From IMG/VR virus record IMGVR_UViG_3300045988_098886: 64,000 nt of DNA; one strand, 5' to 3'. The notes below the pieces were generated by a model. That model did not search any database. It was given only the letters and a program-made list of their open reading frames with translations, and was not told where the DNA came from. The first letter of the stretch is position 1. Every line of letters begins with the position of its first letter. The DNA is from a virus. The position numbers and the translations under genes are program-made. Below are positions 55,409-55,559 of the stretch, one piece after another.

Positions 55409-55559
55409 AAGTTACAGGATACTGCGGGTTCTCTAGCGCTCTATCCAAACTGAGCTAAGGTTTGCGGCTCCGACTTCTTAACGCCACACCTACTGGACTC
55501 GAACCAGTGACCTCTTCATTAGCAGTGAAATAGAATTTTAATTGCTGTATGTATCCTTT
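55409..55559 (-). ncRNA. ACAGCAA-family small RNA, member 7, with a permuted tRNA mimic
   Basis: 5' AAAGGAUACAU-ACAGCAA .. hairpin UUUCA-CUGCUAA-UGAAG, T arm ACUGG-UUCGAGU-CCAGU, AGGUGUG-(20-nt cap)-CAAACCU, UA, D arm GCUC-AGUUUGGAUA-GAGC .. GUAUCC-UGUAACUU 3'. It abuts tRNA-Val. Confidence 0.65.

What the first reader, a model, noticed from the sequence alone, without database searches (positions are those of the whole stretch)
55409..55559. Second permuted tRNA mimic (member 7) carrying a Ser(GCU)-like anticodon hairpin
Between the closing strands GGAUAC and GUAUCC the order is:
- hairpin UUUCA-CUGCUAA-UGAAG, whose loop is identical to the anticodon loop of the phage tRNA-Ser(GCU) at 48745..48829
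- AGGUC
- T arm ACUGG-UUCGAGU-CCAGU
- acceptor 3' strand AGGUGUG
- 20-nt cap
- acceptor 5' strand CAAACCU (one A-G mismatch)
- UA
- D arm GCUC-AGUUUGGAUA-GAGC

This is the same permuted topology as member 3, but with a different tRNA ancestor. That suggests repeated recruitment of tRNA bodies into the conserved frame.
Basis: seen in the sequence. Interest (0 to 1): 0.75.

Follow-up and report, generated by a model that had tools for sequence, protein, structure and literature searches.

The report
Phage Y-like RNA with tRNA mimic
This stretch encodes a small structured RNA in which a rearranged (circularly permuted) tRNA look-alike sits inside a short stem-plus-motif "frame" that recurs next to Ro60-like protein genes in many unrelated phages, so it is most likely a phage Y-RNA-type partner of that protein and not a working tRNA.

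Summary
Put back into normal order, it is called a tRNA by ARAGORN.

It is one of 11 copies of a frame: AAG, a covarying 7-bp stem, UUACAGCAA, a variable insert, the stem's 3' strand, then CUG(U). All 11 lie in the tRNA array downstream of a 573-aa DUF2828/DUF7788 protein. That protein's AlphaFold model matches Ro60/Rsr over its full length.

The same frame sits beside homologous Ro-like genes, on the same strand, in these places:
- 80 metagenomic phage loci
- a cyanophage
- Listeria phage A511
- a Felix-O1-like coliphage
- Klebsiella and Bacillus phages
- mycobacteriophage Lumos

Member 7 has orthologues in three lineages, with five compensatory pair changes. Its "anticodon" drifts (GCU, GUU, GUA). 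Its body is no closer to the phage tRNA-Ser than to other tRNAs. The exact GCU hairpin recurs in Ro-linked RNAs of distant phages.

The interior has the YrlA order (V hairpin, T arm, capped acceptor, D arm). It lacks YrlA's GNCGAA motif and scores below Rfam's threshold.

Unexpectedly, the frame's only Rfam resemblance is to Dictyostelium Class I RNAs, up to 39.3 bits against a threshold of 41.5.

Best reading: a Y-RNA-like ribonucleoprotein partner. This has not been shown experimentally.

The parts
55415..55559 (-). Member 7 as a whole: AA, 7-bp terminal stem, ACAGCAA motif, permuted tRNA-like body, 3' stem strand, G. It ends 6 nt (UAACUU) before tRNA-Val.
   Evidence: orthologues in L008, L041/L015, L046, L047/L048/L049/L053/L055
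55551..55557 (-). Frame stem, 5' strand AGGAUAC. It pairs with 55416-55422.
   Evidence: Across the family the stem covaries: 174 two-sided changes in 69 sequences, against 24-56 in slid controls.
55536..55550 (-). Single-stranded frame motif AUACAGCAAUUAAAA. The family consensus is UUACAGCAAW.
   Evidence: aligned to the CCUUACAGCAA motif of Rfam RF01414
55531..55535 (-). Connector helix, 5' strand UUCUA. It pairs with UAGAG at 55431-55435.
   Evidence: kept in the orthologues (U-G to U-A); one A-A mispair in L046
55514..55530 (-). Anticodon-arm-like hairpin UUUCA-CUGCUAA-UGAAG. It occupies the 'V' position of YrlA.
   Evidence: There are two compensatory pairs in the L047 group, and the loop triplet varies GCU/GUU/GUA. 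The same 16-mer occurs in Ro-linked RNAs of Lumos, L137 and L142, and in a tRNA-like element of L149 where no Ro-like gene lies in the stretch held.
55492..55513 (-). Variable-loop-like AGGUC plus T arm ACUGG-UUCGAGU-CCAGU
   Evidence: matched by the Rfam tRNA and YrlA models
55458..55491 (-). Capped acceptor-like stem: AGGU-GUGGC, 14-nt loop GUUAAGAAGUCGGA, GCCGC-AA-ACCU
   Evidence: the inner 5 bp change GC to AU twice and by wobble three times; the loop is invariant in all orthologues
55438..55457 (-). UA plus D arm GCUC-AGUUUGGAUA-GAGC
   Evidence: C-G to U-A compensatory change in the L047 group
55416..55435 (-). Connector 3' strand UAGAG, tail AACCCGCA, frame stem 3' strand GUAUCCU
55333..55408 (-). 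tRNA-Val(UAC) immediately downstream. It is gained or lost together with member 7 as one cassette.
   Evidence: L002 and L004 lack 55542-55317, with breakpoints in the repeated frame 5' motif. In L046 and L047 a tRNA start follows the element.
59764..61485 (-). Ro60-like protein gene (573 aa; DUF2828 + DUF7788/vWA). It is the proposed protein partner.
   Evidence: AlphaFold model pLDDT 80.6; Foldseek top five hits are Ro60/Rsr over the full length, E 8.5e-8 to 2.3e-6
47397..59720 (-). Span holding the ten other frame copies: 47397-47488, 52064-52184, 52511-52629, 54523-54589, 55073-55139, 55249-55307, 55975-56117, 58238-58292, 58414-58474, 59625-59720
   Evidence: Members 3 and 8 also carry T-first tRNA-like bodies. 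Member 11 starts about 42 nt after the stop of the Ro-like gene.
2911..4612 (-). Context: Thg1-like tRNA 5'-end repair enzyme (2911-3696) and polynucleotide kinase-phosphatase (3698-4612). An ATP-dependent ligase lies at 8072-9262.

Best explanation
Member 7 is a non-coding RNA of the Y-RNA type. It is made of two modules.

Module 1 is the frame shared by all 11 copies. The 5' and 3' ends pair in a 7-bp stem. The stem is flanked by AAG and CUG(U) and is followed by single-stranded UACAGCAAUU. I infer that this frame is the handle bound by the phage's Ro60-like ring protein (59764-61485).

Module 2 is a tRNA-shaped body in permuted order:
- connector helix
- anticodon-arm-like hairpin
- T arm
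- acceptor-like stem closed by a conserved 14-nt loop
- D arm

With its acceptor end capped it cannot be charged. I infer that it presents a tRNA surface to a tRNA-binding partner. The partner could be a processing or modification enzyme, an exoribonuclease, or a host tRNA-cleaving defence factor. The body would either tether that partner to the Ro-like protein, as Y RNAs tether Ro60 to PNPase, or occupy it as a decoy.

The RNA is probably cut out of the tRNA-array transcript by the tRNA-processing enzymes, since tRNA-Val starts 6 nt downstream.

Shown: the sequence anatomy, conservation with compensatory changes, the linkage of the frame to Ro-like genes, and the Ro60-like fold of the protein model.

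Inferred: expression, protein binding, the partner, and the biological role.
For: 1. Anatomy and tRNA-likeness.

2. Orthologues in three lineages, whose Ro-like proteins are 71-100% identical. They keep all helices. There are five two-sided compensatory changes: two in the hairpin, two in the inner acceptor stem and one in the D arm. There are four wobble-compatible changes and only two mispairs, both in L046.

3. The neighbouring 573-aa protein has a Ro60-like fold. Weak colinear sequence hits to Ro60 fall at the MIDAS region.

4. The frame follows the Ro-like gene across phage diversity, on the same strand:
- Five tandem copies lie right after the gene in Leptolyngbya phage Lbo-JY46.
- 443 motifs lie on the gene strand against 13 on the other strand in 80 IMG/VR loci.
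- Three copies lie just upstream of A511 gp57.
- Copies lie next to the gene in Klebsiella KP13-26, Bacillus PBC2 and E. coli SUSP2.
- Three copies lie after the 'Ro-like RNA binding protein' of mycobacteriophage Lumos. One holds a YrlA-type tRNA-like domain scoring 39.3 bits. One holds the very hairpin of member 7.

5. The T-first order holds in 26 of 26 members with both arms, as in YrlA. YrlA-model hits are 34.8 bits for member 3 and 24 bits for member 7.

6. Context of RNA repair:
- Thg1-like, PNKP and ligase genes in the window.
- RtcB, RNA ligase or CCA-adding enzyme genes near the homologues in A511 and fHe-Yen9-04.

7. Precedents from the literature:
- Thermus phage phiLo Ro60 binds two phage-encoded Y-like RNAs encoded upstream of its gene, and it engages host PNPase (PMC12135203).
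- Bas63 gp130, Ro60-like by structure and lying directly upstream of the tRNA array, counters the Ppl defence system. Its RNA partner was only guessed at (PMC11482910).
Against: - There are no expression or binding data of any kind.
- Member 7 lies 4.2 kb from the Ro-like gene. It is absent, together with tRNA-Val, from relatives whose Ro-like proteins are 88% and 68% identical, so it is dispensable.
- The cloverleaf-like fold is 3.6-7 kcal/mol above the computed minimum, and the folding z-score is +0.27.
- The motif thought to bind canonical Rsr (GNCGAAN0-1G) is absent.
- Rfam scores are below threshold for both YrlA (24 against 69) and Class I RNA (18.2 against 41.5).
- No frame was found near the homologues in Fusobacterium phage Fnu1 or Yersinia phage fHe-Yen9-04.
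- In this phage most frames sit 5-14 nt upstream of tRNAs. A purely cis-acting processing role is therefore not excluded.
Confidence: 0.6

Rival explanations
1. It is a cis-acting element of tRNA-array expression. The frame hairpins, with or without tRNA-like bodies, are spacers or entry sites for RNase P, RNase Z or RNase E. They organise processing of the polycistronic tRNA precursor and have no function as a free RNA or with the Ro-like protein.
For: - In the window 9 of 11 frames end 5-62 nt upstream of a tRNA. Several start 19-39 nt after the previous tRNA.
- No promoter or terminator consensus flanks member 7 on its strand.
- Member 7 and tRNA-Val behave as one cassette.
- A tRNA-like body could attract RNase P, as M. 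smegmatis YrlA does (PMC4201824).
Against: - In Lbo-JY46, A511, Lumos and L142 the frames form tandem arrays next to the Ro-like gene, with no tRNA beside them.
- The conserved single-stranded ACAGCAA and the conserved inserts are not needed for a spacer. These inserts include the invariant 14-nt cap loop and the recurrent hairpins.
- The frame is tied to the strand and the presence of the Ro-like gene.
Confidence: 0.12
2. It is a stand-alone tRNA decoy. The tRNA-like body and its anticodon-arm mimic soak up a host tRNA-directed nuclease or modification enzyme on their own. The frame only stabilises the ends against exonucleases.
For: - 124 of 267 distinct inserts carry a hairpin with a 7-nt YUNNNRN loop, against 26 expected.
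- Apart from T loops, the commonest loop is CUUUUAA, the tRNA-Lys(UUU) anticodon loop. It occurs in 21 distinct elements with 6 different stems, including window member 5.
- Member-7 relatives show GUU and GUA. Lys, Asn and Tyr tRNAs are classical targets of anticodon nucleases (own knowledge).
- The window encodes tRNA repair enzymes.
Against: - This does not explain the tight linkage of the frame to Ro-like genes, or the conserved ACAGCAA motif.
- It is compatible with the main explanation as its output step rather than a true alternative.
Confidence: 0.15
3. It is a true circularly permuted tRNA gene, as in the red alga Cyanidioschyzon merolae. The transcript would be circularised and re-opened to give a functional tRNA.
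For: All four arms are present, and ARAGORN accepts the de-permuted sequence as a tRNA.
Against: - The acceptor-like stem is closed by a 14-nt loop that is invariant among orthologues. It carries an AA bulge, so there is no free CCA end unless it is cleaved.
- The 'anticodon' changes GCU, GUU, GUA between close relatives, with no matching change of the body.
- A class I body with a Ser anticodon lacks the long extra arm that bacterial seryl-tRNA synthetase needs (own knowledge).
- The same frame encloses ten other inserts, most of which are not tRNA-like.
- No splicing-endonuclease-type machinery is known in bacteria (own knowledge).
- The phage already has a standard tRNA-Ser(GCU).
Confidence: 0.04
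4. It is debris of recombination between tRNA genes. The 3' half of one tRNA is followed by the 5' half of the next, giving a degenerate tRNA dimer with no function.
For: tRNA arrays are recombination-prone, and the region shows cassette gain and loss. Chen et al. had to discard dimeric tRNAs as false YrlA hits (PMC4201824).
Against: - The two acceptor strands are complementary to each other, and their extension covaries.
- The element is kept in three lineages, with compensatory changes and an invariant cap loop.
- It is enclosed by a paired frame stem.
- The T-first layout recurs in 26 distinct elements.
Confidence: 0.03

Closest known systems
YrlA, the tRNA-like bacterial Y RNA (Rfam RF02553; Chen et al. 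2014, PMC4201824)
   Same: - It has a modular layout: the terminal stem formed by the 5' and 3' ends encloses a tRNA-like domain.
- The order inside is V hairpin, T arm, closed acceptor-like stem, D arm.
- It is encoded near, and on the same strand as, a Ro60-type gene.
- Phage examples exist.
- Members 3 and 7 give partial YrlA-model hits (34.8 and 24 bits).
   Different: - Scores are far below the gathering score of 69.
- The proposed Rsr-binding motif GNCGAAN0-1G is absent.
- The stem module is instead a short 7-bp stem plus ACAGCAA.
- The protein is of the DUF2828/DUF7788 type, not Pfam TROVE.
- There are up to 11 copies per genome, most without a tRNA-like domain, interleaved with tRNA genes.
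- Member 7 keeps a full anticodon-arm-like hairpin.
Dictyostelium Class I RNAs (Rfam RF01414; Kjellin et al. 2021, PMC7919456)
   Same: - Conserved AAG start.
- A 6-7-bp terminal stem whose sequence varies while pairing is kept.
- The motif (C)UUACAGCAA directly after the 5' strand.
- A variable A/U-rich interior.
- A CUG(U) end, with the C pairing the conserved G.
- A length of about 55-70 nt in the short members.
- Many copies per genome.
- RF01414 is the only Rfam family that hits the frames. Hits are full-length and at exact boundaries: 39.3, 30.7 and 26.2 bits in Lbo-JY46; 29.3, 27.2 and 26.2 bits in the window; 23.1 bits in A511.
   Different: - No phage element reaches the gathering score of 41.5. 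Member 7 scores 18.2 bits, with a 93-nt insertion.
- The phage motif is one base shorter, and the stem is one pair longer.
- There is no DUSE promoter.
- The host is bacterial.
- Class I RNAs were reported as unique to dictyostelids and are bound by the RRM protein Rnp1A. No link to a Ro-like protein is known.
Thermus phage phiLo Ro60 with its Y-like RNAs Yrl1 and Yrl2 (PMC12135203)
   Same: A phage-encoded Ro60-type ring protein with phage-encoded partner RNAs lying next to its gene. A proposed role is hijacking host RNA-processing enzymes.
   Different: The phiLo protein is a canonical Ro60. Its RNAs have a stem-bulge-stem with a CGAA motif. They have no ACAGCAA frame, and no permuted tRNA body is reported.
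Bas63 (Felixounavirus) gp130, the Ro60-like counter-defence protein (PhageMaP preprint, PMC11482910)
   Same: It is Ro60-like by structure, lies directly upstream of the phage tRNA array, and is needed against the Ppl defence system. The Felix-O1-like phage SUSP2 has the same arrangement, a DUF2828 protein, and frames among the tRNAs.
   Different: The authors only guessed that some annotated tRNAs are Y RNAs, and no partner RNA was identified. I did not verify directly that gp130 is the SUSP2 gp127 orthologue.
Circularly permuted tRNA genes of Cyanidioschyzon merolae (own knowledge: Soma et al. 2007)
   Same: The 3' half of a tRNA is encoded before the 5' half, with the acceptor strands joined by a linker.
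   Different: Those give functional tRNAs through a circular intermediate. Here the cap loop is conserved, the anticodon drifts, and the element is embedded in a shared non-tRNA frame.

Membership tests
YrlA (RF02553) | T-arm-like and D-arm-like stem-loops, with a closed acceptor-like stem between them | tested here: met
   the model aligns positions 24-84
YrlA (RF02553) | A less conserved 'V' stem-loop upstream of the T arm | tested here: met
   Hairpin 55530-55514; kept with two compensatory pairs
YrlA (RF02553) | GNCGAAN0-1G motif near the 5' end (proposed Rsr contact; PMC4201824) | tested here: not met
   The 5' part reads AAAGGAUACAUACAGCAAUUAAAAUUCUA and holds no such motif
YrlA (RF02553) | Rfam gathering score of 69 bits | tested here: not met
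   24 bits for member 7, 34.8 bits for member 3
YrlA (RF02553) | Encoded within 4 kb of a Ro60 orthologue, on the same strand | tested here: inconclusive
   Same strand, but 4205 nt from the stop codon. The protein is DUF2828-type, Ro60-like by predicted fold only.
YrlA (RF02553) | Bound by the Ro60/Rsr protein in vivo | not testable with these tools
   Needs immunoprecipitation or gel shift
Dictyostelium Class I RNA (RF01414) | Short terminal stem joining the 5' and 3' ends, with structure conserved rather than sequence | tested here: met
Dictyostelium Class I RNA (RF01414) | 11-nt motif CCUUACAGCAA next to the 5' stem strand | tested here: inconclusive
   Member 7 has CAUACAGCAA. The family consensus is C-(N)UUACAGCAA, one base shorter.
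Dictyostelium Class I RNA (RF01414) | Conserved AAG start and CUGU end | tested here: met
   AAAG... and ...CCUGU in member 7. Family frequencies are 92-96% for A, A, G, C and U. RNA ends themselves were not mapped.
Dictyostelium Class I RNA (RF01414) | Length of 42-65 nt | tested here: not met
   Member 7 is 142-145 nt. Short paralogues are 52-72 nt.
Dictyostelium Class I RNA (RF01414) | Rfam gathering score of 41.5 bits | tested here: not met
   18.2 bits for member 7. The best phage element scores 39.3 bits. None passes in a further 141 kb.
Dictyostelium Class I RNA (RF01414) | DUSE promoter about 60 nt upstream; dictyostelid host | tested here: not met
   Phage context; upstream is tRNA-array sequence
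Ro60/TROVE proteins (for the neighbouring gene) | HEAT-repeat ring plus C-terminal vWA domain with a MIDAS motif | tested here: met
   The model matches 1yvr, 2i91, 1yvp and 2nvo over about 560-578 aligned columns, TM 0.37-0.52. D365, S367 and S369 are invariant.
Ro60/TROVE proteins (for the neighbouring gene) | Pfam TROVE domain (PF05731) by sequence | tested here: not met
   Only DUF2828 and DUF7788 are hit. A profile search against PDB Ro60 sequences gives E 0.25.
Functional tRNA | Free acceptor end, Rfam tRNA score of at least 29 bits, stable anticodon identity | tested here: not met
   Capped acceptor; 25.5 bits; GCU/GUU/GUA among orthologues

The most novel reading that the evidence does not exclude
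The AAG-stem-UUACAGCAA...CUG(U) frame is the cognate binding handle of the DUF2828-type Ro60-like proteins. Dictyostelium Class I RNAs are then the eukaryotic members of the same ribonucleoprotein family. Class I RNAs would not be an invention of social amoebae. They would be Y-RNA analogues shared with (or exchanged through) phages, and possibly giant viruses, which also carry DUF2828 proteins. Their long-unknown function would then become testable through a Ro-like partner. In phages the variable interior (full permuted tRNA, T arm alone, or anticodon-arm mimics of Lys, Asn, Tyr, Ser) would programme which tRNA-directed host factor the particle captures.
Probability: 0.3. Interest if true: 0.92.

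Novelty: new variant of a known kind. Interest (0 to 1): 0.8.

Why it matters
Ro60-like genes sit beside the tRNA arrays of many well-studied phages, including Felix O1 relatives, Listeria A511, mycobacteriophages and cyanophages. One such gene has just been shown to counter a bacterial defence system, yet its RNA partner was unknown.

This element and its ten paralogues point to a concrete, easily recognised candidate partner family. Its interiors are modular and often imitate tRNAs or single tRNA arms. That gives a direct handle on how phages might use Ro-type particles in the conflict over tRNAs.

The frame is also almost the same as that of Dictyostelium Class I RNAs. These are abundant RNAs of unknown mechanism that were thought to be unique to social amoebae. 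The resemblance suggests a protein partner to look for there.

Tried and rejected
1. Nucleotide BLAST of the region against 50,697 phage records found only tRNA matches and no close relative.
2. Thermodynamic folding of either strand was not informative.
3. An exact-match scan with the T arm (21-mer) returned mostly ordinary tRNAs and only one copy of member 7.
4. The MAFFT alignment of the member-7 orthologues misplaced the hairpin, so pairs were tabulated from a hand segmentation that was checked against the sources.
5. tRNA-Ser(GCU) as donor was rejected.
6. A functional permuted tRNA and tRNA-dimer debris were both rejected (see rivals).
7. A promoter or terminator reading of the AT-rich flanks found no consensus sites on the coding strand.
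8. A sequence search of the protein against the PDB gave only insignificant hits. The fold comparison was needed.
9. I looked for any paper linking DUF2828, Class I RNA, Ro60 and phage RNAs. None was found in the held library. Avesson et al. 2011, which lists the proteins pulled down with a Class I RNA, is not held.
10. Self-cleaving ribozyme and CRISPR-repeat-mimic ideas were considered by eye and dropped. No Rfam family of those kinds hit, even at E-values up to 10.
11. The loci used as 'controls' (L009-L029) are tRNA-rich phage fragments. Two of them (L019, L022) do hold frames, so they are not clean negatives.
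Full report
THE OBSERVATION

The window is a phage-like region with 24 tRNA genes, all on the minus strand between 45.4 and 61.6 kb.
- a closing stem (AGGAUAC/GUAUCCU, one pair longer than stated)
- the hairpin UUUCA-CUGCUAA-UGAAG
- AGGUC
- a canonical T arm
- two mutually complementary acceptor strands joined by a cap
- UA
- a canonical D arm

The loop heptamer equals the anticodon loop of the phage tRNA-Ser(GCU). Rearranged into normal order, the 75-nt sequence is accepted as a tRNA by ARAGORN. In place, the Rfam tRNA model gives 25.5 bits (threshold 29). 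The YrlA model aligns T arm, capped acceptor and D arm at 24 bits. Energy-based folding does not distinguish the region from shuffled sequence, so the support has to come from comparison with relatives.

THE FRAME FAMILY

The motif AAG-N8-CAGCAA occurs 11 times on the minus strand of the tRNA region. Each copy is closed by a stem whose sequence differs from copy to copy, followed by (U)G. Usually a tRNA follows 5-14 nt later. Member 7 is the seventh copy.

Members 3 and 8 also enclose T-arm-first tRNA-like bodies. Member 2 encloses an unpermuted tRNA-like piece. The others enclose 30-70 nt of A/U-rich sequence.

In an alignment of 69 non-redundant short members from many phages, the nine stem positions are paired in 90.7% of cells. 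There are 174 two-sided changes, against 24-56 when the partner column is slid. That set had been selected for having a stem, so I ran an unselected test. In 1.27 Mb around 80 homologous loci the 5' motif alone occurs 443 times on one strand and 13 times on the other. Of the 443, 420 have a 7-bp closing stem within 240 nt, against 17% after shuffling.

THE PROTEIN NEXT DOOR

The ORF at 59764-61485 (573 aa) ends about 42 nt before member 11. It hits Pfam DUF2828 and DUF7788 and PHROG 850, 'RNA-binding protein'. An AlphaFold model built on 41 homologues (pLDDT 80.6) has Ro60 and Rsr structures as its five best PDB matches. These are 1yvr, 2i91 (two chains), 1yvp and 2nvo, aligned over the full length with E-values from 8.5e-8 to 2.3e-6. 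Only isolated vWA domains follow. The DxSxS MIDAS residues are invariant.

Homologues in SUSP2, A511 and mycobacteriophage Lumos (annotated 'Ro-like RNA binding protein') have the same two Pfam domains and not Pfam TROVE.

THE FRAME TRAVELS WITH THAT PROTEIN

- In Leptolyngbya phage Lbo-JY46 (protein 41% identical), five frames stand head to tail directly after the stop codon, separated by GAUA. Only one tRNA gene lies in the 21.9-kb stretch examined, about 4 kb upstream of the frames.
- Most of the 80 IMG/VR loci found through the protein carry frames, and always on the gene's strand.
- A covariance model of the frame finds copies in the 358-nt gap just upstream of A511 gp57. It also finds copies beside the genes of Klebsiella phage KP13-26, Bacillus phage PBC2 and the Felix-O1-like phage SUSP2.
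- In Lumos three frames follow the gene. The first is short. The second encloses a YrlA-type tRNA-like domain (Rfam YrlA 39.3 bits). The third encloses the hairpin UUUCA-CUGCUAA-UGAAA.
- No frame was detected near the homologues of Fnu1 and fHe-Yen9-04.
- In several of these phages the gene also neighbours the tRNA array, or genes for RtcB, RNA ligase or CCA-adding enzyme.
- The window itself encodes a Thg1-like enzyme, a polynucleotide kinase-phosphatase and an ATP-dependent ligase.

MEMBER 7 ITSELF

Identical or near-identical copies occur in L015/L041 and in L008. Diverged orthologues occur in L046 (Ro-like protein 73% identical) and in the L047 group (about 71% identical). A hand segmentation, verified against the sources, shows the following:
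- The frame stem, T arm and outer acceptor pairs are unchanged.
- The hairpin stem changes at two pairs on both sides (C-G to U-A, A-U to C-G).
- The inner acceptor stem changes at two pairs on both sides, plus three wobble-compatible changes.
- The D stem changes at one pair on both sides.
- A connector helix UUCUA/UAGAR joins the body to the frame.
- The 14-nt cap loop GUUAAGAAGUCGGA is invariant.
- Two mispairs occur, both in L046.

The 'anticodon' is GCU in the window, GUU in L008 and L046, and GUA in the L047 group. In a 99.6%-identical relative (L008), the only difference inside the element is that middle base.

Relatives whose Ro-like proteins are 88% and 68% identical lack member 7 together with tRNA-Val. 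The breakpoints lie in the repeated 5' frame motif, which indicates cassette loss or gain by recombination between frames.

THE DONOR QUESTION

The de-permuted body is 73% identical to the phage tRNA-Ile and 68% to tRNA-Arg. tRNA-Ser(GCU) is not among the eight best matches. Its anticodon arm scores lower than that of tRNA-Arg. The shared heptamer is therefore not evidence of descent from tRNA-Ser.

More telling is the exact 16-mer UUUCACUGCUAAUGAA. It occurs 37 times in IMG/VR, and at least nine of those lie in frame or tRNA-like elements of other phages:
- three Lumos-like contigs
- L137: frame, hairpin, T arm and capped acceptor, 450 nt after a Ro-like gene
- L142 and L154: a frame variant with UUCCGCAA, 200 nt before a Ro-like gene
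- L149: hairpin, T arm, capped acceptor and D arm

The hairpin is thus an old, shared module of these RNAs.

Across the family, 124 of 267 distinct inserts hold a hairpin with an anticodon-loop-like or T-loop-like 7-nt loop, against 26 expected. After T loops the commonest is CUUUUAA, the tRNA-Lys(UUU) anticodon loop, with six different stems.

COMPARISON WITH WHAT IS KNOWN

The interior matches the YrlA layout of Chen et al. 2014: V hairpin, T arm, closed acceptor-like stem, D arm, encoded near a Ro60-type gene on the same strand. However, the GNCGAA motif and the long Rsr-binding stem of YrlA are absent (see the consensus), and scores are far below threshold.

The frame's only Rfam resemblance is to RF01414, Dictyostelium Class I RNA. 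Hits are full-length and at exact boundaries:
- 39.3, 30.7 and 26.2 bits in Lbo-JY46
- 29.3, 27.2, 26.2, 21.8 and 21.6 bits in the window
- 23.1 and 19.6 bits in A511
- 18.2 bits for member 7, with its 93-nt insertion

The features that Kjellin et al. 2021 list as defining are all present in the phage consensus, with a motif one base shorter. Those features are an AAG start, a CUGU end, a 6-bp covarying terminal stem, an 11-nt motif next to the 5' strand, a variable remainder and a length of about 60 nt.

No phage element reaches the curated threshold of 41.5 bits, including in a further 141 kb scanned. I therefore do not file them as members. [quoted passage not shown] I found no paper in the held library connecting them to Ro-type proteins or phages.

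Two recent reports give functional precedent. A canonical phage Ro60 binds phage-encoded Y-like RNAs and engages host PNPase (PMC12135203). Bas63 gp130, Ro60-like by structure and lying directly upstream of the tRNA array, counters the Ppl defence, and its RNA partner was only guessed at (PMC11482910).

INTERPRETATION AND LIMITS

I conclude, at about 0.6 confidence, that member 7 is a Y-RNA-type non-coding RNA. A frame shared by all 11 copies would serve as the handle for the Ro60-like protein. The permuted tRNA body would serve as the effector module, either tethering a tRNA-binding factor or acting as a decoy for it.

Nothing here shows expression, processing sites, binding or phenotype. Member 7 is dispensable in close relatives and lies 4.2 kb from the gene. 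A cis-acting role in tRNA-array processing is the main rival.

Two readings remain open: that Class I RNAs of social amoebae belong to the same protein-RNA partnership, or that the resemblance is convergent. The test I could not run is whether dictyostelids encode a DUF2828 protein that binds Class I RNAs. DUF2828 proteins have been noted in mimivirus-like sequences.

Noticed in passing
window 55073-55139 (-), and 20 other distinct elements in related loci: Frame member 5 encloses the hairpin UCAAA-CUUUUAA-UUUGA. Its loop is the tRNA-Lys(UUU) anticodon loop, and the element lies upstream of the phage tRNA-Lys. The same loop recurs in 21 distinct family members with six different stems, which suggests a Lys anticodon-arm mimic subfamily.
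   Followed up: partly
window 51974-52057, 53910-53993, 54930-55015, 55160-55242, 58146-58232 (-): The phage tRNAs for Thr, His, Lys, Cys and Trp are 83-87 nt long and carry an extra arm in the variable region. Bacterial tRNAs of these specificities are normally of the short class I type.
   Followed up: no
window 56906-56980 (-): ARAGORN gives this tRNA an 8-nt anticodon loop with a four-base anticodon (gcgt). The Rfam tRNA score is 56.9 bits. It may be a frameshift-type or otherwise unusual decoder.
   Followed up: no
window 52064-52184 (-): Frame member 2 encloses an unpermuted tRNA-like piece: a D-like arm, the hairpin CCUAAC-CUUGUGU-GUUAGG and a T arm. Rfam tRNA gives 24.7 bits at 52080-52138. 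The frame therefore accepts tRNA-like bodies in either order.
   Followed up: partly
window 55317-55542 compared with L002 14981-15006 and L004 7909-7915: Member 7 plus tRNA-Val is present or absent as one block. The breakpoints lie inside the repeated 5' frame motif, so the frames seem to act as recombination points that shuffle RNA/tRNA cassettes.
   Followed up: partly
L142 about 7700-7830 (-) and L154: A variant frame with UUCCGCAA in place of ACAGCAA lies upstream of a Ro-like gene (40% identical to the SUSP2 protein). Two tandem copies are present, and one holds the UUUCA-CUGCUAA-UGAAA hairpin.
   Followed up: no
L043 4396-4944, L067 6277-6871, L054 and L038 2627-3178, L046 5309-5860: Relatives of this phage carry a long tmRNA gene (70-77 bits, 550-600 nt) 1-5 kb upstream of the Ro-like gene. 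No tmRNA was found in the window itself.
   Followed up: no
L119 (E. coli phage SUSP2) about 7797-7870: Between two frame copies lies an unannotated tRNA-like sequence, GCGGGUAUAGAG...GGUUCGACUCCUGCACCCGCCUCCA.
   Followed up: no
window 2911-4612, 8072-9262, 22255-23058 (-): The window encodes a Thg1-like tRNA 5'-end repair enzyme, a polynucleotide kinase-phosphatase, an ATP-dependent DNA/RNA ligase and an ADP-ribosylglycohydrolase. Together these form a toolkit for undoing RNA or tRNA damage.
   Followed up: partly
L116 (Listeria phage A511) 7625-7983: A TTGACA box lies at about 7632, ahead of three frame copies that fill the gap before gp57. This suggests the RNAs and the Ro-like gene form one transcription unit there.
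   Followed up: no
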